Positions 12,742-22,764 of a stretch of 37,413 nt of DNA are shown here, in pieces. This stretch comes from a virus. Below the pieces are notes generated by a model, which made no database searches, had not been told where the DNA came from, and saw nothing but the letters and a program-made list of their open reading frames with translations. Within the stretch, counting starts at the first letter, position 1, and every line of letters starts with the position of its first letter. Location of the stretch: positions 1-37,413 of IMG/VR virus record IMGVR_UViG_3300002460_000014; one strand, given 5' to 3'. The translations under genes were made by a program, and so were the position numbers.

Positions 12742-13152
12742 ATGGCAAGAGAACTAACCAAAAAACAAAGAGGGTTTGTAAAAGATTTTATAAAGACAGG
12801 CAATGCCACGCAAGCGGTTTTAAATAATTATGATGTTGAGTCAAAAGACAAAGAGAATACAGCCGGAGCGATCGGCAGTAAAGAGTTAAGAAAAGACAAG
12901 ATACAAAAAGAATTAAAACCGGCGCTTGAAAGATATCAAAAAGAATTAACGGCGATTCTGGATGCGATGGAATTAAAAGATAAAGGCAGTGAAGAATATA
13001 GAACGCTCGTTGATGCGGCAGATAAAGTCCAAAAACAGATTCAGCTTTTGTCGGGAGGATTAACAGATAGGGTAGCGGTTATAACATTTGATGAATCGTT
13101 TAAAAAAAGAAATGAAACTACATCCAGCCCAGAAGCAGGTAGTAGAGAATAA
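12742..13152 (+). CDS. terS: terminase small subunit
   Basis: N-terminus ELTKKQRGFVKDFIKTGNATQAVLNNY matches the small-subunit HTH signature (LT.KQ..F...Y..GNAT.A). Lies directly upstream of, and overlaps, terL. Confidence 0.65.
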   Translation: MARELTKKQRGFVKDFIKTGNATQAVLNNYDVESKDKENTAGAIGSKELRKDKIQKELKPALERYQKELTAILDAMELKDKGSEEYRTLVDAADKVQKQIQLLSGGLTDRVAVITFDESFKKRNETTSSPEAGSRE

Positions 13153-14332
13153 CAATAGATTTAAGGTTCTCTTGGCTGGAAGACGTTTTGGTAAAACGGT
13201 TTTAGCTATTGAGGAACTTATTTACACGGCAACAGACAAGCAAGACGCAAGAGTGGTTTACGTGGCGCCAACGTTTCAAAGCGCTCGGGATATTGCATTA
13301 GAACAGTTAAAGAAAAGAGCCCATATTGTAACAAAGCAAATCAATGAGACAAGATTAGAGGTTGAAATTATAAATAGGTTTGGAGGCACAAGTAAGATAT
13401 TTTTAAGAAGCTGGGACAGTATTGAGACGTTGAGAGGACAAGCATTTGATTTTATTGTATTAGATGAGGTTGCTCAATATAAGGATTTTTGGATTGGTTG
13501 GCAGGAGGTTTTGCGGCCAACATTGACAGATAAAAGAGGGAACGTTCTTTTCATATCCACACCCAAAGGTTTTAACTGGTTTTATGATTTGTATAACTTG
13601 AGTTTAACTGACAGAGAGTTTAAGAGTTTCCACTTTACCAGCTATGACAACCCATTTATTCCAAAAGAAGAAATAGACGCCGCTAAAGACCAAATGACTC
13701 CGGAACGCTTTGCTCAAGAGTATTTAGCCAGTTTTCAAAAAACAGAGGGTTTGGTTTACAAAGAGTTTTCAAGGAGTAAGCACTTATACGATACTTTACC
13801 GCAAGGAACGTTTAGCAAGATAGCAGGCATTGACTTTGGATATAGAAATCCGGCCGCTGTTCTGCATATTTACACTAACGGCGAATTATATTTTGTTGAA
13901 GAAGAGTGGTATAAGCGAGAACGAACGGAAGCTGTATTGGCTGACTACGTTGCCACTTGTAGCTTTGAAGCGGTGTATCCTGATCCGGAGAGCGCTAACG
14001 GCATAGAAGAATTAAGAAAAAGAAGTATAAACGTCCGAGAGGTTAGTAAAGGCAAAGACAGTATTGAGTCCGGCATTCAAAAGGTTAGAGAACTTTTAAT
14101 AAACGGCAGATTAAAAATAAACAAGCGGTGTGTTAATCTTATAAGCGAGTTTGAAATGTATTCTCACGATGAAGATAACTTGAGCGAGAACCCGATTAAG
14201 GAACATGACCACGCTTTAGACGCTTTGAGGTATGCGCTATTTATGAGGGACTTTAAGCCAGAAGTATCAAGAGAAATCAAAAGCCAATTTGAGAGAACTA
14301 AAGCTATGAAGCAGAGAGAATCAACAAGATGA
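13088..14332 (+). CDS. terL: terminase large subunit
   Basis: Walker A LLAGRRFGKT, Walker B FIVLDE, and C-terminal nuclease motif HDHALDALRY. The start could instead be 13112. Confidence 0.9.
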   Translation: MMNRLKKEMKLHPAQKQVVENNNRFKVLLAGRRFGKTVLAIEELIYTATDKQDARVVYVAPTFQSARDIALEQLKKRAHIVTKQINETRLEVEIINRFGGTSKIFLRSWDSIETLRGQAFDFIVLDEVAQYKDFWIGWQEVLRPTLTDKRGNVLFISTPKGFNWFYDLYNLSLTDREFKSFHFTSYDNPFIPKEEIDAAKDQMTPERFAQEYLASFQKTEGLVYKEFSRSKHLYDTLPQGTFSKIAGIDFGYRNPAAVLHIYTNGELYFVEEEWYKRERTEAVLADYVATCSFEAVYPDPESANGIEELRKRSINVREVSKGKDSIESGIQKVRELLINGRLKINKRCVNLISEFEMYSHDEDNLSENPIKEHDHALDALRYALFMRDFKPEVSREIKSQFERTKAMKQRESTR

Positions 14333-14733
14333 GTCCTAACGACATAAAAGTTATAAACGAGTTTCCGCCGTTCTTTCAAGATATTATCAAAGCAGGAATG
14401 AAACCCGAACCGACAACGATTTATCCGTTTTCTAATGTTATTTATAACCCAAGTGGTTTAGATATCCCTCAAGACATAATGATTCACGAAGCGGTTCATA
14501 TCAGACAACAAGGCGAGAACCCAGCCGATTGGTGGAAGCGATACCTAACTGATAACCAGTTCAGATTCAATCAAGAACTGGAAGCTAACCAAGAGCAATA
14601 TAAGTTTGTGTGTAAAGTCCTTAAAGACAAAAACCAAAGAGCGAGAGCATTGCTAAAGATAGCGAGAAATATGGCTGGAAAGGTTTATAACTTGAATGTT
14701 AGTGTTAATGAGATAATGAGGATGATAAAATGA
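14329..14733 (+). CDS. hypothetical protein with HExxH motif (MIHEAVHIRQ)
   Basis: 134-aa ORF, ATGA-coupled to terL. Confidence 0.6.
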   Translation: MSPNDIKVINEFPPFFQDIIKAGMKPEPTTIYPFSNVIYNPSGLDIPQDIMIHEAVHIRQQGENPADWWKRYLTDNQFRFNQELEANQEQYKFVCKVLKDKNQRARALLKIARNMAGKVYNLNVSVNEIMRMIK

Positions 14734-14813: not shown

Positions 14814-15326
14814 ATGCCAAAAGGTATATATTCAAACCCAAAAGAAAGAGCAGAGAAAATATCTAAAGCATTAAAAACAGGTAAGTTTTTTAACTGTTTA
14901 ATTTGTTGTAGTAAGTTTTGGAGAAAACAATATGCGATTAAAAAAGGGCAGAATAAGTTTTGTTCAAAAGATTGTTATTTCAAATGGCAAAAGGGAAGGA
15001 ATAAAAGTGAGGCGTTTAGAGTAAAATGTAAGGAAGCAAGATTAAGAAAAGCACACCTATATACGATTGATAAAAAAAATAGATTTTGGAGAAATAGCAA
15101 TGAATATAAAGAGTGGAGAAAAAGTGTGTTTAGGAGAGATAACTGGACTTGTAAAAAATGTGGTGCAAGAAGTAAGAAAAACTGTTATGTAAGAATTGAG
15201 GCACACCATATTAAGCCATTTGCCTTATTCCCAGAATTAAGGTTTGTCATAGATAACGGAGTAACACTTTGCAAACCGTGCCATGATAAAGAGCCGAAAG
15301 GTAAAGAAATCTTATGTATAAAATAG
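14814..15326 (+). CDS. HNH homing-type endonuclease
   Basis: NSNEYKEWRKSVFRRDNWTCKKCG...AHHIKPF...IDNGVTLCKPCH. Paralogous to the 22141 ORF. Confidence 0.85.
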   Translation: MPKGIYSNPKERAEKISKALKTGKFFNCLICCSKFWRKQYAIKKGQNKFCSKDCYFKWQKGRNKSEAFRVKCKEARLRKAHLYTIDKKNRFWRNSNEYKEWRKSVFRRDNWTCKKCGARSKKNCYVRIEAHHIKPFALFPELRFVIDNGVTLCKPCHDKEPKGKEILCIK

Positions 15327-16048
15327 AAGATATACTTAACAAAGTTCATAATGCAGATTGCCTTGAGTTTATGAAGCAAATGCCCGATAAATGTGTGGAT
15401 TTGGTTGTTACGAGTCCGCCCTATAATTTAGGAGATTCGCCCTTAGGCGATAGACGAAGGAAAACACTCGGGACGAAATTATATGAAGATTTTACCGACA
15501 AGTTATCTGACGAAGACTATCTAAACTGGACACTAAGTATTATTGGAGAATGTATCAGGATTTCAAGGTATACTTGTTGGAATATCCAACTTGTGAAGGG
15601 AACTCGTTCATTTTTTCCAAAGATTTTCCAAACATACAACGATAACTTGAAGGACGTATTTATATGGGTAAAACAAGCACAGGCAAGTATGCACGCAGAT
15701 AAGGGTATGATGGCAAAAGGATATGAATATGTGCTTATGTTTGGAGATGATAGTTCACAGATGTTCAAATATAATAACTTTCCCGAAAACGGCTATGTTC
15801 CCAATAGGCAGGAATGGTTCAACAAGGATAATGGATTCGGACATAACGCAACATTCCCGAAAGAATTACCGAGTTATTTTGTAAACTACTTTTCAAAGTC
15901 GAACGATATAATCCTTGACCCATTCCTCGGCTCTGGCACAACCGCAGTCGCCGCTAAAATGCTGGGCAGAAACTATATCGGAATTGAGATTAGTGAAAAG
16001 TATTGTAAAATCGCCAACGATAGATTAAGACAGGAGATTTTATTATGA
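15314..16048 (+). CDS. DNA methyltransferase, beta class (N6-adenine or N4-cytosine)
   Basis: Motif IV DLVVTSPPY comes before motif I ILDPFLGSGTTAVAA. Confidence 0.85.
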   Translation: MYKIEDILNKVHNADCLEFMKQMPDKCVDLVVTSPPYNLGDSPLGDRRRKTLGTKLYEDFTDKLSDEDYLNWTLSIIGECIRISRYTCWNIQLVKGTRSFFPKIFQTYNDNLKDVFIWVKQAQASMHADKGMMAKGYEYVLMFGDDSSQMFKYNNFPENGYVPNRQEWFNKDNGFGHNATFPKELPSYFVNYFSKSNDIILDPFLGSGTTAVAAKMLGRNYIGIEISEKYCKIANDRLRQEILL

Positions 16049-16848
16049 AAACTCTTAGCATAATAATCCCGGAAAAGAATGAAAAATATCTTGATAAAAC
16101 CGTTGCTGATGTTTTGAGTAAAGCTGTCGGAGAGGTTGAAGTGCTTGTTTACCACGATACTAACGAGAGTAATGGTATGAGGGAAGGAATCAATACAAAG
16201 GTTAAGGAGGCTAAAGGAGAGTATATTCTCAAGTTAGACGCTCATTGTATGCTTGATGAGGGTTTTGATATTAAACTTATTGAGGCTCATAAATCTAATT
16301 GGGTTCAGATACCAAGAAGAAAGAGGTTAAACGCGGATAAGTGGGAGTTAATAGAGGATGGCAGGCCGCCGGTAGATTATGAAGCCATTATATTTCAAAA
16401 TTTGTTTGAAAACGCGGGCAGGTTGAAGTCAAAAGGTTTTATATGGGCGAGTCCGTGGGACGACTTAACGAAAGAAAGATCAGATATCTTAGTAGACGAC
16501 ATTCCACATTTTCAAGGTTCTTGCTGGTTTATGACAAAAGAATGGTTTAATGAGTGTGGATTTATGAGTTTAGATTACGGAGGATTCGCACAAGAAGCGG
16601 AAGAAATAACTTTTACTACATTTAGCAAGGGAGGAGAGATTAAGGTTAATAAAAATACTTGGTATGCTCATTTACACAAAGACATGGAAGATCGCAGGTG
16701 GTTCAAGCTCGATAGTGAGGATATGGCAAAAGGATATTCCCATTCTTACAATACTTGGGTAAGAGACAAAGAATTATTTATTAAATTTATAGAGAGGTTT
16801 CCCCTAATGCCCGGATGGCCGGTTAATTGGAGAAAGATATTATATTAA
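16045..16848 (+). CDS. GT-A fold glycosyltransferase (family-2-like, DxH motif)
   Basis: LSIIIPEKNE at the N-terminus and EYILKLDAHCML (DxH). Confidence 0.75.
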   Translation: MKTLSIIIPEKNEKYLDKTVADVLSKAVGEVEVLVYHDTNESNGMREGINTKVKEAKGEYILKLDAHCMLDEGFDIKLIEAHKSNWVQIPRRKRLNADKWELIEDGRPPVDYEAIIFQNLFENAGRLKSKGFIWASPWDDLTKERSDILVDDIPHFQGSCWFMTKEWFNECGFMSLDYGGFAQEAEEITFTTFSKGGEIKVNKNTWYAHLHKDMEDRRWFKLDSEDMAKGYSHSYNTWVRDKELFIKFIERFPLMPGWPVNWRKILY

Positions 16849-16852
16849 AAAT

Positions 16853-17662
16853 ATGAAACAATTAAGTATTTTAGTTCCAGCCCGCAACGAGGAATTCCTC
16901 CAGCAGACCATAGACGATATTTTTTTACACAGTGAGTTAGGAGATAAGTTAGAAATCCTTGTTGGTCTTGACGGATGGCATACAAAGTTAAAAAAACGCC
17001 CTAATTTAAGAGTTTTTGAGTCAACCAATGTCTTGGGTCAGCGCGCTACTCAAAATGCGTTAGCGGGCATATCCGAAGCTAAATATATAATGAAGTTAGA
17101 CGCTCACGTTAGCGTATCTCAAGGTTTTGACAAAGTTATGCTTGAAATTATGGAAGCGAACCCGAACATAGTTTTAGTGCCGGCGCTTGGTAATCTCCAC
17201 GTATATGATTGGTTATGCCCCTTAAAACACAGAACATATCAAGGTAAAGTGGATAAGTGTGGCCAGTGCGATAGTAAAGATTTAACCAAAGAACTGGTTT
17301 GGAAGATTTCCTCAAAACTTTACAGCGATTTTTATTTTGATAAGGACTTAATCTTTCAGTTTGGAGATGTGGATAACTTTGAGATGTTACACGAAACTAA
17401 GGCGATTCAAGGATCGGGGTTTTTAGTTAGTCGTGAAAATTACTGGAAATGGCAACTATGCGACGAGTCGTGGGGAAGCTGGGGTCAGATGGGATTTGAA
17501 ATATACACAAAAACGCTTAAAAATGGCGGAAAGGTGATGGCTACGAGAAAGGCGTTTATGGGTCATTTCTTCAGGAAAGTTGACGAGTTCCCGTATTCTC
17601 GCTCGCAAGAACAGATTGATGGAGCATATAAGAAGTCATTAGAATTAAGTGGGGTTAAATGA
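16853..17662 (+). CDS. GT-A fold glycosyltransferase, paralogue of the upstream gene
   Basis: LSILVPARNE, GQRATQNALAGISEAKYIMKLDAHVS. Confidence 0.75.
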   Translation: MKQLSILVPARNEEFLQQTIDDIFLHSELGDKLEILVGLDGWHTKLKKRPNLRVFESTNVLGQRATQNALAGISEAKYIMKLDAHVSVSQGFDKVMLEIMEANPNIVLVPALGNLHVYDWLCPLKHRTYQGKVDKCGQCDSKDLTKELVWKISSKLYSDFYFDKDLIFQFGDVDNFEMLHETKAIQGSGFLVSRENYWKWQLCDESWGSWGQMGFEIYTKTLKNGGKVMATRKAFMGHFFRKVDEFPYSRSQEQIDGAYKKSLELSGVK

Positions 17663-17838
17663 AAAAACTAAACAACTCTGATTTTTTTTATTACATGGAT
17701 TTATGGGAAAATTACAATAATAAGCAATGTCATCTTTGTGGTGGTTGGGCTATTGATTGTGATTGTGAAAATGAATTTACCAAGGAAGATAAAAAAGGTA
17801 TTAGACTTTTACTGCGAGAGATTGGTGAGGGGCATTGA
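17659..17838 (+). CDS. small Cys-rich protein (59 aa, below the ORF-track cutoff)
   Basis: ATGA-coupled to the glycosyltransferase gene. Contains CHLCGGWAIDCDC. Confidence 0.45.
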   Translation: MKKLNNSDFFYYMDLWENYNNKQCHLCGGWAIDCDCENEFTKEDKKGIRLLLREIGEGH

Positions 17839-17863
17839 CAAATAATTTTATAGGGTGTATAAT
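17835..17863 (+). promoter_or_regulatory. perfect consensus sigma70 promoter TTGACA-N17-TATAAT
   Basis: ttgaca at 17835-17840, a 17-nt spacer, and tataat at 17858-17863. Confidence 0.7.
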
Positions 17864-17869
17864 GGCAAT

Positions 17870-18008
17870 ATGAAAAACTTAAATTATCTAAAAGTCTTAG
17901 ATTTAATCGCACCTCTATTTCTGGGTGTTCAGCCACGAGCTGTAACGGCGATCGATCTGAGCGCCCAAGATAAGCACCCAGAAACAGTGGTGTGATTTTT
18001 GTTTTTTC
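17870..18008 (+). other. short transcription unit: either a leaderless 41-codon ORF (17870-17995) or a ~135-nt structured RNA, ending in a terminator-like hairpin plus T-tract
   Basis: The ATG lies 6 nt after the -10 element. A 10-bp perfect stem 17918-17927/17975-17984 extends by 4 bp (17910-17913/17989-17992). T-tract at 17996-18007. Confidence 0.5.
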
Positions 18009-18029
18009 ATAATTTAATCTTAACAAGCG

Positions 18030-18320
18030 AACAATGGGTTGGTTGTAGGGAAGCGGGAGAAAATTCGGGTCTTTTTGCGGTTTCCGCCGCTGACATTAAA
18101 TACATTTTGTATTGAAAATGAAGCACGGGGATTAACAATCGCTTTTCTGCCCAAAGCAGGGATAGCCGACACATCTCACTTTATGTTTCGGTGCCTGTGG
18201 TTTAGCTTTTGTACTGAATAGTTACAACATTCAAGAATGTCTAAACACAACCGCCAGAGGAATTGCAACCTTGCTTAGCTATTAAGAAAAATAAATTAAG
18301 ACGCACTCTTACTTTTTTAA
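18030..18320 (+). ncRNA. GC-elevated, ORF-free, hairpin-rich segment (unclassified candidate ncRNA)
   Basis: About 50% GC by eye against roughly one-third for the genome. Hairpins at 18052-18091, 18096-18116, 18147-18159 and 18166-18191, plus a three-way junction at 18200-18246. Confidence 0.35.
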
Positions 18321-18382
18321 ATTCCTAACTACTGTTAATTCCACTTAAAAGGAATATAATAAAAGAGAGAAGGTTATTAAAG

Positions 18383-18538
18383 TTGAAAAGAAATAAAGTT
18401 GTGTGTAAAAAGTGTTTAGAAAAGAATCAAGAAATAAGATTTATTGATAATTGGAAGATAGCAACTTGTTATAATTGCGGATATGAAGTTGATGACTTTA
18501 TTGTCTTTTTAAATAAAATAAAAACCAGCGAAAATTGA
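18383..18538 (+). CDS. small zinc-ribbon protein (51 aa, TTG start)
   Basis: CKKC...(17 residues)...CYNC. gagaagg lies about 10 nt upstream of the TTG. Confidence 0.4.
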   Translation: MKRNKVVCKKCLEKNQEIRFIDNWKIATCYNCGYEVDDFIVFLNKIKTSEN

Positions 18539-18563
18539 AAAAATTAAATAATTGTGGTATAAT
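18535..18563 (+). promoter_or_regulatory. promoter TTGAAA-N17-TATAAT with extended -10 (TGG), candidate late-operon promoter
   Basis: ttgaaa at 18535-18540, tgg at 18555-18557, tataat at 18558-18563. Confidence 0.6.
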
Positions 18564-18576
18564 TAAAATAATCAAT

Positions 18577-18771
18577 ATGAAAAAATATATTTGTGATAAG
18601 TGTAAGGAGAAAATAGTGCATATAAACGATGATGGAAGTTTTGAAGTAGTTTGGGCTTCAAGGATTTCAGAAATTAAGGATATAAAGAAGTTTTTGCCAT
18701 TTATTAAAGAATTGGGAAATAAAGCTAAGGAATCGGTTGAGGATGCGTTGCTAAAACATTTAATAAAATAA
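18577..18771 (+). CDS. hypothetical small protein (CDKC motif)
   Basis: I prefer ATG 18577. The ORF-track TTG 18535 coincides with the -35 element. Confidence 0.55.
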   Translation: MKKYICDKCKEKIVHINDDGSFEVVWASRISEIKDIKKFLPFIKELGNKAKESVEDALLKHLIK

Positions 18772-18810: not shown

Positions 18811-20646
18811 TTGGAACATAAGTCAATTTGTGAGCTTGTAAGACAAGCTGAAGAAAATCAAAAACACGGGGTAATACGTAAATCTCAATACGTTACTTTT
18901 GAGCCGCAAGCCGATCTTGATAAAATATCAGCTTATGTAGAATCAAAACATATATCCGGCTTAACCGACGACCTTGGAAGAGAAAAGCCATTTTTTAATA
19001 TAGGCATAGCCATTCGTAATCTCTGGTTCAGGGCAACCGAGATTATGAGAAAGAACTTTAGATTAAAAGCCACTAAATCAAGCCACTTCTTGTTGGCTTT
19101 TTTGGCGAATATACACCTAAGAGCGTGGATGCGTAAAAGCGACTTCGGTCAGTTCTTAAACGACTGGGGTTTGGCACTTGCCACTTATAACTCGGCTGTA
19201 TCAAAACACATAGAAAAAGACGGCGAGCTTATCTCAAAGGTTATTCCTTGGAGCAAGATTATCTGCGACTTCGTTGATTTTGAGAATAATCAGAAGATTG
19301 AAAAACTTTACTTTACTCCGGCCCAGTTAAGACAGAACGAAAACTATAACAAAGAACTGGTGGAAGAACTTATCAGAAGCAAGTCAACGAGGAAAACATT
19401 ATCCGGCCAGCAAGTGGACTCAAAAGCCGATTACATAGAAGTTTATGAGGTTCACGGCGAACTGCCTCTAAGCCACTTAACCGACAAAGAAAAAGACGAA
19501 AACGTTTATCAGCAACAGATGCACGTTGTGGCTTTTAATCAAGCGGAAACCGGCAAATACAGTGATTACACTTTATTTTCAGGCAGAGAGAAGCAGGATC
19601 CTTATATGCTTGCGAGTTTGATACCGGATACTGATGGGGGAATATCATTAAGTGGTTCAATAAAACTTACTTTTGAAAATCAGTGGATGGTAAACGACAC
19701 CGCTAAGAAAGTAAAAGATATGCTTGAGTTAGCTTCGCTTATTTTGCTTCAAACTTCAGACAATAACTTTCAAGGCAGGAACGCTTTAGTAAACTTACAG
19801 CAGGGCGATATATTGGTTCACGCTCAAAACCAGCCGCTAACACAGTTAAATAACAAGGCCGATATAAATGCCTTACAAAGTTTCGGTCAGCAGTGGGAAG
19901 TATTGGCTAAGGAGATTACTTCAACGCCGGAATCTTTAAGAGGCGAAACACTGCCAAGTGGAACGCCTTACTCTCTTGGAGCTTATCTTGGCGGTCAAGC
20001 CGGTTCTTTATTCGTTACTATGACCAAAAACAAAGGACTTGCCTTAGAGCGAATGGCAAGAAAGTTTATACTCCCCTACCTTAAAAAGAAAATGGATACC
20101 ACTGAAGAAATTGCCGAAACGCTTGAAAGCCACGAAATCAAACAGATTGACGCGGCATTCGTCCCGAATGAAGCCATAAGAATCGCCAATGAACAGATTA
20201 AAACTGATATTCTTAATGGCAAGCTGACTCAGCAACCTGATTTGGGTGCTATAGAATCGCAGATTCGGGCTAAGTTAGGCAGTTTGGGCAACCAGAGGTT
20301 CATAAGGCCGTCTGACATAATTTCTAAGAAGTGGAGGGATATTTTCAAAGATTTCATTTGGGAGATAGAAGTTGAAGTTACCAACGAAGAAACAGACAAG
20401 CAGGCAACGCTTCAGACGCTTTCAACGATTATGCAGACAGTGGCGGCGAATCCTTTGGTGCTTCAAGACCCGAATATGCGACTGATTTTTAACAGAGTGC
20501 TTGAACTTACTGGCGTAGTTTCGCCAGTTGAAATCAGTCAGACAGAAAGTCAACCTCAATTACAACAGGGACAGCCATTACAGCCAACAGCTCAAACTGG
20601 CGGCAGACAGGTCGAAATGGCTATGAATAATTTACAAACAAGATAA
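18811..20646 (+). CDS. portal protein (size and position based)
   Basis: 611 aa, the largest ORF at the head of the late operon, with a Q-rich C-terminus. The TTG start directly follows an in-frame TAA and there is no SD. Confidence 0.6.
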   Translation: MEHKSICELVRQAEENQKHGVIRKSQYVTFEPQADLDKISAYVESKHISGLTDDLGREKPFFNIGIAIRNLWFRATEIMRKNFRLKATKSSHFLLAFLANIHLRAWMRKSDFGQFLNDWGLALATYNSAVSKHIEKDGELISKVIPWSKIICDFVDFENNQKIEKLYFTPAQLRQNENYNKELVEELIRSKSTRKTLSGQQVDSKADYIEVYEVHGELPLSHLTDKEKDENVYQQQMHVVAFNQAETGKYSDYTLFSGREKQDPYMLASLIPDTDGGISLSGSIKLTFENQWMVNDTAKKVKDMLELASLILLQTSDNNFQGRNALVNLQQGDILVHAQNQPLTQLNNKADINALQSFGQQWEVLAKEITSTPESLRGETLPSGTPYSLGAYLGGQAGSLFVTMTKNKGLALERMARKFILPYLKKKMDTTEEIAETLESHEIKQIDAAFVPNEAIRIANEQIKTDILNGKLTQQPDLGAIESQIRAKLGSLGNQRFIRPSDIISKKWRDIFKDFIWEIEVEVTNEETDKQATLQTLSTIMQTVAANPLVLQDPNMRLIFNRVLELTGVVSPVEISQTESQPQLQQGQPLQPTAQTGGRQVEMAMNNLQTR

Positions 20647-22140: not shown

Positions 22141-22764
22141 ATGAATGGACGATTTACAAAGGGACAAATCCCTTGGAACAAAGACAAAAAACGCCCAGAG
22201 ATGAGCGGTGAGAAACATCCTATGTTTGGCAAGAATCAAACCGAAGAATCCAAGCAGAAGGTTCGGGATACTCTAAAAAAGAAATATCCCAACGGCAGGA
22301 AAGTTTGGAATAAAGATATTCCTTGTTCTGAATCTACTAAAAAGAAAATAAGCGACAGCAAGAAGGGCAAGCCAAGTAATTCACCGACAAAGTTTAAGAA
22401 GGGGCATATTCCATTACACAAAGGAAAATCTGCTTATTGGGCGATTGGTGAAAAGAATAATAATTGGAAAGGCGGAATAACCAAGACAAACTATAATCCG
22501 AATCTCATAGCAAAAAACTCTATTGAATATAGATTGTGGCGTGAAGCCGTATTTTCAAGAGATAATTGGATTTGTCAGAAGTGTAAAGTTCAAGGAGGAT
22601 ATTTACATCCTCATCATATCAGGAACTTTGCAGAAGTTATTTTACTAAGATTCGCCATTGATAATGGGATTACATTTTGCCGAAAATGTCATAGAAAATT
22701 TCACCACAGATTCGGAGTTAAAAATAATAATCAAGAACAGATAAATAAATTTATCGCAAGTTGA
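22141..22764 (+). CDS. HNH homing-type endonuclease with NUMOD-like N-terminal repeats
   Basis: GEKHPMFGKNQTEESKQK, PWNKD, then NSIEYRLWREAVFSRDNWICQKC...PHHIRNF...IDNGITFCRKCH. Confidence 0.85.
   Translation: MNGRFTKGQIPWNKDKKRPEMSGEKHPMFGKNQTEESKQKVRDTLKKKYPNGRKVWNKDIPCSESTKKKISDSKKGKPSNSPTKFKKGHIPLHKGKSAYWAIGEKNNNWKGGITKTNYNPNLIAKNSIEYRLWREAVFSRDNWICQKCKVQGGYLHPHHIRNFAEVILLRFAIDNGITFCRKCHRKFHHRFGVKNNNQEQINKFIAS

What the first reader, a model, noticed from the sequence alone, without database searches (positions are those of the whole stretch)
17835..18360. Perfect-consensus promoter, short terminated transcript and a ~300-nt GC-rich ORF-free structured island between the glycosyltransferase genes and the late operon
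**Promoter.** The only perfect TTGACA-N17-TATAAT I found in the genome sits at 17835-17863.

**First transcript.** Six nt after the -10 element is an ATG (17870), so any mRNA would be leaderless. It opens a 41-codon frame (MKNLNYLKVLDLIAPLFLGVQPRAVTAIDLSAQDKHPETVV). The stop of that frame lies between the 3' arm of a long interrupted stem and a T-tract at 17996-18007. The stem has 10 perfect bp (17918-17927/17975-17984) plus 4 bp more. Its interior can form two small hairpins (cagc/gctg and ggcg/cgcc). The unit is therefore either a micro-protein gene or a ~135-nt three-way-junction RNA.

**Second segment.** Bases 18030-18300 are visibly more GC-rich (about 50%) than the genome (about one-third). 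They have no credible ORF and are packed with local helices: 18052-18056/18087-18091, 18096-18116, 18147-18159, 18166-18174/18183-18191, and a three-way junction closed by gtttag 18200-18205 / ctaaac 18241-18246.

**Context.** Nearly every other base of this genome codes for protein. About 450 nt of promoter-driven, structured, non-coding sequence immediately ahead of the late operon promoter (18535-18563) is therefore the clearest unexplained element. I could not match it to any RNA family from memory: it lacks tRNA/tmRNA, RNase P, hammerhead and purine or fluoride riboswitch motifs.
Basis: partly seen in the sequence, partly recalled or inferred. Interest (0 to 1): 0.72.

Follow-up and report, generated by a model that had tools for sequence, protein, structure and literature searches.

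The report
Phage small RNA with self-pairing code
A strongly promoted gene of about 135 nt in an uncultivated groundwater phage belongs to an undescribed family of folded RNAs whose 5' tail base-pairs with one of its own loops through a fast-changing sequence "code"; the neighbouring "GC-rich structured island" is not supported.

Summary
**First unit (17835-18007): real.** The only perfect TTGACA-N17-TATAAT in the window drives an RNA of about 138 nt. It folds into a 21-24 bp stem (P1) closed by a U-tract terminator, capped by a three-way junction with hairpins P2 and P3.

**Family.** I found five more divergent homologues (37-68% identity) in related phage contigs, plus two strain variants. 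All keep this fold. 17 of 23 P1 pairs show compensatory changes. Rfam 15 has no match.

**New feature.** The 7-9 nt immediately 5' of P1 are complementary to the 3' part of the P3 loop in every member, each time with a different sequence. In two near-identical strain contigs, every difference from the window over the 0.9-1.1 kb compared lies inside this RNA. Six fall in the 5' strand; one variant carries three compensating changes in the loop.

**Geometry.** This pairing cannot coexist with a fully formed P1 in one molecule. I infer a switch or an interaction between molecules, such as self-targeting control of terminator read-through.

**41-codon frame.** It is open in all six lineages, but its peptide sequence is not conserved.

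**Second segment (18008-18382).** It is ORF-free. GC is 40.6% against 37.1% for the genome, the fold z-score is about 0, and no homologue was found. It remains unexplained.

The parts
17835..17863 (+). Perfect sigma-70-type consensus promoter (TTGACA-N17-TATAAT) of RNA1
   Evidence: Unique in the window, 0.05 expected by chance. The homologues L021 and L068 also carry a perfect consensus. L142 and L143 carry TGn-extended -10 elements.
17870..18007 (+). RNA1: structured small RNA of about 138 nt. It has a 5' single-stranded tail, a long stem P1, a three-way junction with hairpins P2 and P3, and a U-tract terminator. The 5' end is inferred from the promoter and the 3' end from the U-tract.
   Evidence: Fold z = -5.9. 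Six divergent lineages share the architecture. CM R1 recovers L143 (E = 3e-5) and L068 (E = 1e-3), which were not used to build it. No Rfam match.
17896..17903 (+). PK5: 5' strand (CUUAGAUU) of the long-range pairing, 1 nt upstream of P1
   Evidence: Complementary to 17954-17961. The same arrangement, with different sequences, occurs in all lineages. Six strain differences lie in 17896-17905.
17905..17929 (+). P1 5' strand (P1a 17905-17913, P1b 17915-17916, P1c 17918-17929)
   Evidence: Pairs with 17973-17997. 178 of 184 cells are canonical, and 17 of 23 pairs show compensatory changes.
17930..17942 (+). P2 hairpin (CAGC/GCUG, 5-nt loop)
   Evidence: TGGC/GCCA in L021 and CGGC/GCCG in L142 covary. 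L021, L029 and L142 have GNRA tetraloops.
17947..17965 (+). P3 hairpin (GGCG/CGCC) with an 11-nt loop. Loop bases 17954-17961 (GAUCUGAG) form PK3.
   Evidence: The L018 changes at 17952, 17957 and 17961 compensate the PK5 changes.
17973..17997 (+). P1 3' strand, running directly into the U-tract
17996..18012 (+). U-tract TTTTTGTTTTTT plus conserved CATAA: the intrinsic terminator tail. It is complementary to the 5'-terminal AUGAAAAA.
   Evidence: TTTTTGTTTTTTCATAA is identical in 4 of 6 lineages and nearly so in the other 2. The 5'/3' pairing appears in the MFE folds.
17870..17995 (+). 41-codon frame overlapping RNA1 (rival or secondary reading: a leaderless leader ORF)
   Evidence: Open for 30-41 codons from a 5'-proximal AUG in 6 of 6 lineages. 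No codon periodicity. Not called by gene callers on full-length contigs.
18008..18382 (+). ORF-free segment downstream of the terminator. Function unresolved; probably the read-through 5' UTR or 'cargo' region.
   Evidence: GC 36.8-40.6%. z about 0. No promoter scoring at least 10 of 12. Not matched by CMs R2 and R3, built from the downstream RNA of the L029 group. No tblastn hits.
18383..18538 (+). 51-aa ORF with two CxxC pairs: the first coding sequence downstream of the cassette (context)
   Evidence: No family hit. Not on record as a called gene.
18535..18563 (+). Promoter upstream of the 64/78-aa ORF and the portal gene (context)
   Evidence: 11 of 12 match with TG. A -10-type promoter sits directly upstream of the portal gene in relatives that have RNA1 and in relatives that lack it.

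Best explanation
**Shown.** Bases 17835-18007 are an independent transcription unit for a non-coding structured RNA, RNA1, of about 135 nt. RNA1 founds a family absent from Rfam.
- A consensus promoter starts transcription at about 17870.
- A single-stranded A/U-rich 5' tail of about 26 nt is followed by P1. P1 is a 21-24 bp stem formed by the 5' and 3' parts of the RNA, and its 3' strand runs into a U-tract (intrinsic terminator).
- P1 is capped by a three-way junction with hairpins P2 and P3.
- The 7-9 nt that abut the base of P1 (PK5) are complementary to the 7-9 nt of the P3 loop that abut the 3' strand of P3 (PK3). This holds in every member, with a lineage-specific sequence.
- RNA1 sits in an accessory cassette made of the promoter, RNA1 and variable downstream cargo. 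The cassette is inserted between the terminase and portal genes of only some related phages.

**Inferred from A-form geometry.**
- PK5 lies at the far end of a P1 rod of about 65 Å, with a 0-1 nt linker.
- The stacked P3 plus PK helix is only about 35 Å long.
- So the PK pairing and a complete P1 cannot coexist in one molecule.

**Proposed mechanism (inferred).** RNA1 works as a two-state, self-recognising riboregulator.
- During transcription both PK strands are made before the 3' strand of P1. A PK formed in cis hinders closure of the outer part of P1 (P1a), which is the base of the terminator. This favours read-through into the promoter-less cargo (18008 onwards).
- Terminated RNA1 accumulates, driven by the very strong promoter. 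It has a closed P1 and therefore free PK strands.
- These free strands pair in trans with the PK strands of nascent transcripts of the same 'code'. The terminator then forms again and read-through is shut off.
- The changing code gives type specificity, in the manner of RNA-based immunity or incompatibility determinants.
For: **Promoter.** Unique perfect consensus. L021 and L068 carry one as well.

**Fold.** z = -4.0 to -6.6 in six lineages with 37-68% pairwise identity.

**P1.**
- 96.7% canonical cells and 17 of 23 pairs with double (compensatory) changes; slid-partner controls give 34-55%.
- RNAalifold on a MAFFT alignment independently finds 7 covarying P1 pairs.
- 17 G·U against 2 A·C cells marks the + strand as the RNA strand.

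**Homology.** CM R1 finds the two members that were not used to build it. It finds nothing in 72 other portal loci or elsewhere in the window.

**PK pairing.**
- 7-9 contiguous pairs in all six divergent lineages and in strain variant L018: window CUUAGAUU/GAUCUGAG, L018 UUCAAAUC/GAUUUGAA, L021 and L143 AAGUUGAA/UUCAACUU, L029 ACAUUGU/GCAAUGU, L068 GUUGAGA/UCUCAAC, L142 UCGUAGAAA/UUUCUACGA.
- The helix is always 0-2 nt from P1 and 0-1 nt from the 3' strand of P3. Shuffle p = 0.0006-0.005 for each.

**Strain variants.**
- In L018 and L020, all 10 and 7 differences from the window over about 0.9-1.1 kb lie within 17896-17988.
- Six of them are in 17896-17905.
- L018's changes at 17952, 17957 and 17961 turn C-G, G-C and A-U pairs into U-A, A-U and G-C. 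Two G·U pairs become G-C.

**Geometry inputs.** P1 has 21-24 bp and the linker is 0-1 nt.

**Cargo.** No credible promoter lies between the terminator and the next ORF.

**Not coding.** No codon periodicity.

**Precedents for short terminated phage RNAs acting on their own longer transcripts.** IsrK and the P4 CI RNA (PMC4825925).
Against: - There are no transcript data. The 5' and 3' ends, the abundance and any read-through are all inferred.
- The steric incompatibility is a geometric argument, not a model or a measurement.
- Only six lineages are known. The structural alignment is partly hand-made or fitted to the model, so the counts lean towards the structure.
- L021 and L143 share one PK sequence.
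- L020 carries the variant PK5 with the original loop, which leaves one central mismatch. It may be an intermediate or an assembly chimera.
- No conserved second target (seqC-like) exists in the cargo; only L021 has extra copies.
- The cargo is not conserved between lineages, and in the window it shows no feature at all.
- The 30-41-codon frame is open in 6 of 6 lineages. The AUG-to-GGU distances are 51, 54 and 57 nt. This hints that ribosomes may be part of the mechanism.
Confidence: 0.4

Rival explanations
1. **Leader-peptide attenuator.** The RNA is a leaderless mRNA whose 30-41-codon frame is translated only for its effect in cis. A ribosome that follows RNA polymerase covers the 5' strand of P1 and, at the stop codon, part of the 3' strand. 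The terminator then cannot form and transcription reads through into the cargo. Without coupled translation, P1 forms and transcription stops.
For: - An AUG lies 1-5 nt from the predicted start in 6 of 6 lineages.
- The frame is open for 30-41 codons in 6 of 6. Per-sequence shuffle p = 0.08-0.33; Fisher combined p is about 0.04 by my own hand calculation, no tool call.
- The stop codon always falls in J3/1 or in the 3' strand of P1.
- The AUG-to-GGU distance is 51, 54 or 57 nt.
- Peptide sequence is unconstrained, as expected if only the act of translation matters.
- The cargo has no promoter of its own.
Against: - It does not explain P2, P3, the covarying PK helix or the strain-level code swap.
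- There is no Shine-Dalgarno sequence, and leaderless translation in the unknown host is unproven.
- The conserved AUGAAAAA is also explained by its complementarity to the conserved UUUUUUCAU at the 3' end.
- Gene callers do not call the frame on full-length contigs.
Confidence: 0.2
2. **Self-assembling RNA.** The tail-to-loop complementarity joins separate RNA1 molecules head-to-tail into dimers, rings or filaments. The assembly itself is the functional form, for example a scaffold, a decoy or a sponge. The lineage-specific code keeps the assemblies of co-infecting relatives apart.
For: - The PK cannot form within a monomer that has a complete P1 (geometry inferred).
- Both PK strands are contiguous with helices (P1 and P3), which is good for coaxial stacking between molecules.
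- RNAcofold favours dimers by 5-8.5 kcal/mol.
- A very strong promoter implies high concentration.
- Phage contigs from the same sample carry different codes: the window and L142 are from ERZ4903070, and L021 and L029 are from 3300009285.
- Precedents: pRNA rings (PMC5066667, PMC4201828); ROOL and GOLLD cages (PMC12286853); assemblies of RNAs shorter than 200 nt, including manA (bioRxiv 10.64898/2026.07.01.735769).
Against: - There is no experimental evidence of oligomers.
- 7-9 A/U-rich pairs are weak (-6 to -10 kcal/mol).
- No partner protein or function is evident.
- The RNA is dispensable, being absent from most relatives.
Confidence: 0.15
3. **Conventional trans-acting sRNA.** RNA1 acts on host or phage mRNAs through its single-stranded 5' tail. 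The PK complementarity only masks or stabilises the seed region.
For: - The layout is classical for an sRNA: an accessible A/U-rich 5' region, a stable 3' hairpin and a poly-U tail.
- It is an accessory, moron-like cassette.
- Variation is concentrated in the tail.
Against: - No target can be named because the host is unknown.
- The best complementary sites in the phage genome are unremarkable.
- It does not explain why the loop changes in step with the tail.
Confidence: 0.15
4. **Micro-protein gene.** The unit encodes a 41-aa protein, and the RNA structure is incidental or merely stabilises the mRNA.
For: - The frame is open in 6 of 6 lineages.
- N-termini are loosely similar (MKNLNYLK / MEKLNLLK / MKKLNSLQ), with Leu-4 encoded by UUA, CUU and UUG.
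Against: - Substitutions are spread evenly over codon positions: 7/10/10, 8/8/10 and 11/8/8.
- Strain differences are 7 non-synonymous to 2 synonymous, including L10S and L12Q.
- The 1-nt longer P2 loop shifts the frame in the window relative to L021, L029 and L142, so the C-terminal halves are unrelated.
- No Pfam hit.
- The compensatory changes are explained only by RNA pairing.
Confidence: 0.07

Closest known systems
Satellite phage P4 CI RNA with seqA/seqB/seqC, and the related P1/P7 c4 RNA (RNA-based immunity)
   Same: - A short, stable phage RNA made from a strong promoter.
- It carries a segment complementary to another segment on the same strand of the same transcription unit. The two must therefore co-evolve, and their sequence defines type specificity.
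- The outcome in P4 is premature transcription termination (mechanism as summarised in PMC4825925; P1/P7 heteroimmunity is from my own knowledge).
   Different: - No sequence or structure match: the Rfam scans list nothing from this group.
- CI RNA is cut out of a longer transcript, whereas RNA1 ends at its own terminator.
- P4 has two targets, one upstream and one downstream. Here only the upstream one is conserved.
- This phage shows no recognisable lysogeny genes in the early-region genes scanned with Pfam.
IsrK of the Salmonella Gifsy-1 prophage
   Same: One promoter yields a short terminated sRNA and a read-through mRNA. The short form acts in trans on the long form of its own transcript and switches it between two structures (PMC4825925).
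   Different: - IsrK controls translation of a downstream ORF, not (mainly) termination.
- No homology.
- The pairing partner of IsrK lies downstream in orf45. Here it lies at the 5' flank of the same RNA.
phi29-type prohead/packaging RNA (pRNA, Rfam RF00044)
   Same: - A phage RNA of 120-174 nt from a strong promoter.
- A long helix formed by the 5' and 3' ends, a three-way junction and two hairpins.
- A short intermolecular Watson-Crick 'code' that covaries between related phages while the primary sequence drifts (PMC5066667, PMC4201828).
- RNA1 is encoded next to the packaging genes.
   Different: - No CM match.
- The pairing is tail-to-loop with 7-9 bp, not loop-to-loop with 4 bp.
- This phage has ordinary TerS and TerL with a nuclease domain, not a gp16-type ATPase.
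- RNA1 is missing from most relatives with similar portal and terminase genes, so it cannot be an essential motor part.
Leader-peptide transcription attenuators in which coupled translation prevents terminator formation (pyrBI type; own knowledge)
   Same: A short ORF runs from the 5' end through the 5' arm of an intrinsic terminator and ends at its 3' arm. The peptide sequence is unimportant.
   Different: Attenuators of this kind have no three-way junction and no covarying long-range pairing. A leaderless start would be unusual.
Naturally self-assembling RNAs (ROOL, GOLLD, OLE, manA)
   Same: Phage- or prophage-associated structured RNAs of unknown function that use RNA-RNA contacts between identical molecules (PMC12286853; bioRxiv 10.64898/2026.07.01.735769).
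   Different: No homology: GOLLD appears only as a noise hit of 10 bits. RNA1 is much smaller than ROOL and GOLLD. Assembly of RNA1 is conjecture.

Membership tests
Any Rfam 15 family (4227 models) | Score at or above the family's gathering threshold, or at least a low E-value | tested here: not met
   No hit at gathering thresholds in the whole window. With permissive filters, window 17700-18600, L068 1650-2200 and L021 3060-3560 give only noise (E of at least 0.16, bits far below threshold).
phi29 pRNA (RF00044) | Match to the family covariance model | tested here: not met
   Not listed even at E up to 10.
phi29 pRNA (RF00044) | 5'/3' helix plus three-way junction plus two hairpins | tested here: met
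   P1, P2 and P3 are present in all six lineages. This is a resemblance of layout only.
phi29 pRNA (RF00044) | Intermolecular complementarity between the two hairpin loops (CE and D loops) | tested here: not met
   The complementarity is between the 5' flank of P1 and the P3 loop. The P2 loop is a GNRA tetraloop, a triloop or a pentaloop with no partner.
phi29 pRNA (RF00044) | Essential part of a motor with a gp16-type ATPase, present in all relatives | tested here: not met
   TerL has Terminase_6N and 6C domains and TerS is present. RNA1 is absent from 72 related portal loci, from the related portal loci among the 40 sources, and from loci where the glycosyltransferase (GT) gene is followed directly by the portal-gene promoter.
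P4 CI RNA / seqA-seqB-seqC immunity | A segment of the RNA complementary to a site upstream on the same strand | tested here: met
   PK3 is complementary to PK5 in 6 of 6 lineages.
P4 CI RNA / seqA-seqB-seqC immunity | A second complementary site downstream (seqC) | tested here: not met
   Only L021 has downstream copies. L029, L068, L142, L143 and the window have none better than background.
P4 CI RNA / seqA-seqB-seqC immunity | RNA released by processing of a longer leader; pairing causes premature termination | not testable with these tools
   Needs transcript mapping and in vitro transcription.
Leader-peptide attenuator | Short ORF that starts upstream of an intrinsic terminator, overlaps it, and ends at or near its 3' arm | tested here: met
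   In 6 of 6 lineages the stop lies in J3/1 or in the 3' strand of P1.
Leader-peptide attenuator | The ORF is translated (ribosome binding site or leaderless start) and translation changes termination | not testable with these tools
   There is no Shine-Dalgarno sequence. The AUG is 0-4 nt from the predicted start.
Type I toxin-antitoxin | Small hydrophobic membrane peptide plus an antisense RNA gene | tested here: not met
   The peptides carry charges in their 'hydrophobic' stretch and are not conserved. There is no convincing minus-strand promoter: the best is 9 of 12.
MITE or other repeat element with terminal inverted repeats | Several copies per genome; arms conserved as DNA, with no strand asymmetry | tested here: not met
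   There is a single copy in the window. The arms covary, with 17 G·U against 2 A·C cells.
Riboswitch | Invariant junction or loop nucleotides forming a ligand pocket, with consistent downstream gene classes | tested here: inconclusive
   GGUGU, J2/3 UAA and an A-rich J3/1 are shared by five lineages but not by L068. The downstream genes differ in each lineage type.

The most novel reading that the evidence does not exclude
RNA1 is a natural self-assembling RNA. The tail-to-loop code links monomers head-to-tail into rings or filaments, with P1 of one molecule stacking through the PK helix onto P3 of the next. Related phages in the same community keep orthogonal codes so that their assemblies do not mix. 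This would be a pRNA-like quaternary principle in a phage with a conventional terminase, and one of the smallest natural RNA-only assemblies with a programmable interface.
Probability: 0.15. Interest if true: 0.85.

Novelty: new variant of a known kind. Interest (0 to 1): 0.62.

Why it matters
- It adds a well-supported new family of structured RNA from uncultivated groundwater phages, a group whose non-coding repertoire is essentially unknown.
- The family has an unusual, directly testable property: a short Watson-Crick 'code' between the 5' flank and a loop. This code cannot form in the ground-state monomer, differs in nearly every lineage, and has been swapped by compensatory changes between otherwise identical strains.
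- That pattern is the signature of a specificity determinant, as in RNA-based immunity, incompatibility or self-assembly.
- Either outcome, a self-targeting terminator switch or an RNA-only assembly, would be a compact and programmable natural device.
Only about 170 nt of the 525-nt region carries demonstrable signal.

Tried and rejected
**Searches that found nothing**
- blastn of 17600-18600 and tblastn of the portal protein against 50,697 deposited phage records: no match.
- tRNA and tmRNA search: none.
- Exact and degenerate DNA patterns from RNA1. In viral contigs, only the already known L021 and L029 appeared. In metagenome contigs, only a copy of L029. In genome contigs there were three hits, all within apparent coding sequence in Methylobacter-type MAGs and judged false.
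- nhmmer on 138 loci: no new member. It missed L068, which I found as an ORF-free gap.

**Routes to more homologues**
- Glycosyltransferase homologues and their contigs showed that most relatives go straight from the glycosyltransferase gene to the portal-gene promoter, without RNA1.
- Homologues of the 86-aa cargo ORF yielded L142 and L143. L141, L144 and L145 were too short.

**Second segment of the window**
- CMs R2 and R3, built from the downstream RNA of the L029 group, find nothing in the window or in L021. I therefore dropped the idea of a conserved two-domain RNA.
- Six-frame peptides of 17991-18400 searched against all loci: no homology. A decayed gene is not supported.

**Other checks**
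- Search for a second target of the loop or tail in the cargo or genome: nothing consistent.
- Pfam scan of 23 early-region ORFs for a partner protein (RT, Ro, Hfq, RNA ligase, integrase): only an amidase and TerS.
- Hammerhead, twister and other ribozymes, and riboswitches: no Rfam signal, and by eye the junction lacks the hammerhead CUGANGA/GAAA core.
- Forcing my hand-made structural alignment through MAFFT with N padding failed because MAFFT re-gapped it. The pair counts were therefore done in Python on the Infernal alignment.
- Checking the 2023 catalogue of 10,006 viral candidate RNAs for this motif: no supplements are held.
Full report
**1. Setting**

The window is an almost complete phage contig of about 37.4 kb.
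- An identical 37,463-bp contig exists in ENA sample ERZ4903070. Shorter identical or near-identical copies exist in several other runs, one of them labelled 'groundwater metagenome'.
- Neither 17600-18600 (blastn) nor the portal protein (tblastn) matches any of 50,697 deposited phage records.
- All large ORFs are on the + strand.

The gene order around the finding is as follows:

| Coordinates | Feature |
|---|---|
| 12742-13152 | TerS |
| 13088-14332 | TerL |
| 14329-14733 | 134-aa ORF |
| 14814-15326 | HNH endonuclease |
| 15314-16048 | N4/N6 DNA methyltransferase |
| 16045-16848 and 16853-17662 | two family-2 glycosyltransferases (GT) |
| 17659-17838 | 59-aa ORF |
| 17835-18382 | the region in question |
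| 18383-18538 | 51-aa ORF |
| 18535-18563 | promoter |
| 18535/18577-18771 | 64/78-aa ORF |
| 18811-20646 | portal |

In most relatives, TerL and one small ORF are followed directly by the portal gene. In others, a single glycosyltransferase gene is followed directly by the portal-gene promoter. Everything between 14814 and 18535 is therefore an accessory island in a hot spot between terminase and portal.

**2. Checking the observation**

*Confirmed.*
- The promoter is exactly as described. It is the only TTGACA-N16-18-TATAAT in the window (1 found, 0.05 expected).
- The ATG at 17870, the 41-codon frame, the 10-bp perfect helix, the two inner hairpins and the T-tract are all there.
- Bases 17870-18007 fold to -47 kcal/mol, against -26.6 ± 3.5 for dinucleotide shuffles (z = -5.9).

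*Not confirmed: the claims about 18030-18300.*
- GC is 40.6% against a genome mean of 37.1%. One window in four is as GC-rich.
- The fold energy equals that of shuffles: z = 0.06. Local 100-nt windows give z from -2.1 to +1.2.
- The segment is ORF-free.

**3. Homologues of the first unit (RNA1)**

I found five further divergent copies.
- L021 3115-3249 and L029 3040-3171 came from the neighbouring glycosyltransferase.
- L068 1709-1846 appeared as an unexplained ORF-free gap upstream of a related portal gene.
- L142 606-735 and L143 584-731 came from homologues of an 82-102-aa ORF that lies downstream of RNA1 in L029 and L068.

Pairwise identity is 37-68%.

Every copy folds on its own into the same architecture, with z = -4.0 to -6.6:
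- a single-stranded A/U-rich 5' tail of 26-39 nt;
- a long stem P1 of 21-24 bp, with one or two 1x1 mismatches, made from the 5' and 3' parts of the RNA;
- a three-way junction with J1/2 of 0-1 nt, J2/3 of 2-4 nt (UAA in five lineages) and an A-rich J3/1 of 6-8 nt;
- hairpin P2, which has a GNRA tetraloop in L021, L029 and L142;
- hairpin P3, with a 3-5 bp stem and an 8-11 nt loop;
- a U-tract directly after the 3' strand of P1.

Three of the six have a perfect consensus promoter. The others have TGn-extended -10 elements.

A covariance model was built from the window, two strain variants, L021, L029 and L142.
- It recovers the two members left out: L143 at E = 3e-5 and L068 at E = 1e-3.
- It finds no other copy in the window, nor in the other related-phage loci among the 40 sources, nor in 72 further related portal loci.

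**4. Covariation in P1**

On the Infernal alignment, counting + strand rows only:
- 178 of 184 P1 cells are canonical pairs;
- 17 of 23 pairs show changes on both sides that keep the pair;
- sliding the 3' partner by 1-3 columns drops pairing to 34-55%.

Caveat: an alignment fitted to the model favours the structure. However, RNAalifold on a plain MAFFT alignment of four lineages independently predicts P1 with 7 compensatory pairs.

G·U pairs outnumber A·C by 17 to 2, so the RNA is read from the + strand. P2 covaries as well (CAGC/GCUG, UGGC/GCCA, CGGC/GCCG).

No Rfam family matches the window, L068 or L021, even at E up to 10. ARAGORN finds nothing.

**5. The long-range pairing**

In every lineage, the 7-9 nt that end 0-2 nt before the first P1 pair (PK5) are complementary to the 7-9 nt of the P3 loop that end 0-1 nt before the 3' strand of P3 (PK3).

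| Member | PK5 / PK3 |
|---|---|
| window | CUUAGAUU / GAUCUGAG |
| L021 | AAGUUGAA / UUCAACUU |
| L143 | AAGUUGAA / UUCAACUU |
| L029 | ACAUUGU / GCAAUGU |
| L068 | GUUGAGA / UCUCAAC |
| L142 | UCGUAGAAA / UUUCUACGA |

Shuffling each tail gives an equally good helix in only 0.06-0.5% of trials.

The strain variants are the most telling evidence.
- L018 and L020 cover about 0.9-1.1 kb of the window's sequence. They differ from it at 10 and 7 positions respectively, and all of these lie within 17896-17988.
- Six differences, shared by both, turn PK5 into UUCAAAUC.
- L018 also changes 17952, 17957 and 17961 in the loop, giving GAUUUGAA.
- As a result, 17896:17961 goes from C-G to U-A, 17900:17957 from G-C to A-U, and 17905:17952 from A-U to G-C. 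Two G·U pairs become G-C.
- The outcome is an all-Watson-Crick 8-bp helix.
- L020 has the new PK5 with the old loop, leaving one central mismatch. It may be an intermediate or an assembly chimera.

Two 10-nt patches were rewritten in register while the flanks did not change at all. This is not neutral drift. It points to selection on, or recombinational exchange of, a specificity determinant.

**6. Geometry (inference)**

- With J3/1 much longer than J2/3, this is a family-C three-way junction in the Lescoute-Westhof classification (my own knowledge). In that family P1 and P2 stack coaxially and P3 folds back along P1.
- P3 plus PK stacked give 11-13 bp, about 35 Å.
- PK5 is tied by 0-1 nt to the far end of a P1 of 22-26 layers, about 65 Å.
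- Within one molecule, the PK can therefore form only if the outer 9-15 bp of P1 (P1a) stay open. P1a is the part next to the U-tract.
- Conversely, a monomer with a closed P1 has both PK strands free for another molecule.

During transcription both PK strands exist before the 3' strand of P1 is made. Three consequences follow:
- a cis PK would act as an anti-terminator;
- a trans interaction with accumulated RNA1 would restore termination;
- alternatively, the trans interaction may simply build oligomers. RNAcofold favours dimers by 5-8.5 kcal/mol.

No promoter better than 9 of 12 lies between the terminator and the next ORF in the window or in L068. Downstream expression plausibly depends on read-through.

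**7. Is the 41-codon frame a gene?**

*For.*
- An AUG lies within 5 nt of the predicted start, and a frame of 30-41 codons is open in 6 of 6 lineages. The per-sequence shuffle probabilities are 0.08-0.33.
- The AUG-to-GGU distances are 51, 51, 51, 54 and 57 nt.
- The stop codon always falls at J3/1 or in the 3' strand of P1.

*Against.*
- Differences between L021, L029 and L142 are spread evenly over codon positions: 7/10/10, 8/8/10 and 11/8/8.
- Strain differences are 7 non-synonymous to 2 synonymous.
- The window's extra base in the P2 loop shifts the frame relative to the other lineages, so the C-terminal halves are unrelated.
- There is no Pfam hit. Gene callers ignore the frame on full-length contigs.
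- The conserved AUGAAAAA is also the pairing partner of the conserved UUUUUUCAU at the 3' end.

I conclude that no conserved protein is encoded. A ribosome-dependent attenuation role, in which the peptide sequence is irrelevant, remains a live rival.

**8. The second segment**

In L029, L068, L142, L143 and (partly) L141, the about 205 nt after the terminator form a second structured RNA. It is supported by 15 compensatory pairs out of 51 and is followed by the 82-102-aa ORF.

Covariance models of its two domains do not match the window or L021. The window's 18008-18382:
- has no relative other than identical copies;
- shows no fold signal;
- shows no coding remnant.

It stays unexplained. The simplest reading is a lineage-specific read-through leader of the 51-aa ORF.

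**9. Comparison with known systems**

- The closest in logic are the P4 CI RNA (with seqA/B/C) and Gifsy-1 IsrK (PMC4825925), plus the P1/P7 c4 RNA (my own knowledge). All are short phage RNAs that pair with another part of their own transcription unit, so the two parts co-evolve and define specificity. RNA1 is not a member of these families: it has no model match, a different structure and no conserved downstream site.
- The closest in shape is phi29 pRNA (PMC5066667, PMC4201828). RNA1 fails that family's defining features (see the membership table).
- Self-assembling phage-associated RNAs (PMC12286853; bioRxiv 10.64898/2026.07.01.735769) provide a precedent for the most novel reading.

**10. 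Verdict**

- The first unit is a real gene for a structured RNA of a new family; I put my confidence at about 0.9.
- The tail-loop pairing is real (about 0.85) and behaves like a specificity code.
- How it works is inferred. I favour a self-targeting terminator switch (0.4), ahead of leader-peptide attenuation (0.2), self-assembly (0.15), an ordinary trans-acting sRNA (0.15) and a micro-protein (0.07).
- The 'GC-rich structured island' is not supported.

Noticed in passing
L029 3199-3406; L068 1874-2077; L142 763-970; L143 759-970; L141 1-113: A second, apparently undescribed structured RNA of about 205 nt lies directly downstream of the RNA1 terminator in one branch of the family. It consists of a long irregular hairpin plus a three-helix domain closed by UUUAAC/GUUAAA. 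15 of 51 predicted pairs show compensatory changes. It is followed by a conserved 82-102-aa ORF of unknown function (P0121-P0128). It has no Rfam match and is not present in the window.
   Followed up: partly
window 14814-17838: An accessory island lies between TerL and the portal gene. It holds an HNH endonuclease, an N4/N6 DNA methyltransferase, two family-2 glycosyltransferases and a 59-aa Cys-rich ORF. This suggests DNA or virion modification. One glycosyltransferase homologue (38% identity) is named as coming from a Patescibacteria genome, which is a weak hint to the host.
   Followed up: partly
window 18520-18563; L021 3942-3990; L029 3805-3850: The promoter upstream of the portal gene is preceded by a conserved motif, AAAACCAG(C/T)GAAAATTG. 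This may be a regulator binding site of the late operon.
   Followed up: no
window 17870-17878 and 17999-18012 (same in all homologues): The 5'-terminal AUGAAAAA(C) is complementary to the (G)UUUUUUCAU that spans the end of the U-tract and the conserved CAUAA just beyond it. The pairing with CAU can form only in transcripts that pass the usual termination point. Read on the minus strand, the same bases give ATGAAAAAACAAAAA (MKKQK), opening frames of 13-42 codons that are not conserved.
   Followed up: partly
L020 789-926 (window 17870-18007): L020 combines the variant 5' strand (UUCAAAUC) with the window-type loop (GAUCUGAG) and has an extra change at 17972. It is either an evolutionary intermediate with one mismatch or a chimeric assembly of two co-existing strains.
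   Followed up: no
window 18383-18538: A 51-aa ORF (TTG start, preceded by GAGAGAAGG) carries two CxxC pairs, like a zinc ribbon. It is not on record as a called gene in the public collections.
   Followed up: no
L049 1-2524: In a related phage, the TerL gene carries an intein (Intein_splicing and Hint_2 domains). It is followed by an Endonuclease_7/NUMOD3 homing-endonuclease gene. This is further evidence that the terminase-portal junction is a landing site for mobile elements.
   Followed up: no
window 22141-22764: A 207-aa ORF in the middle of the structural genes has an HNH-like CxxC...HxxHH...CxxCH pattern in its C-terminal part. It may be a second free-standing homing endonuclease. This rests only on reading the translation.
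   Followed up: no
L021 3299-3331: The downstream segment of L021 contains two extra copies of the PK5-like sequence, AAGUUGAAA and AAGGUUGAAAA. The P3 loop could also bind these. No other lineage has such copies.
   Followed up: partly
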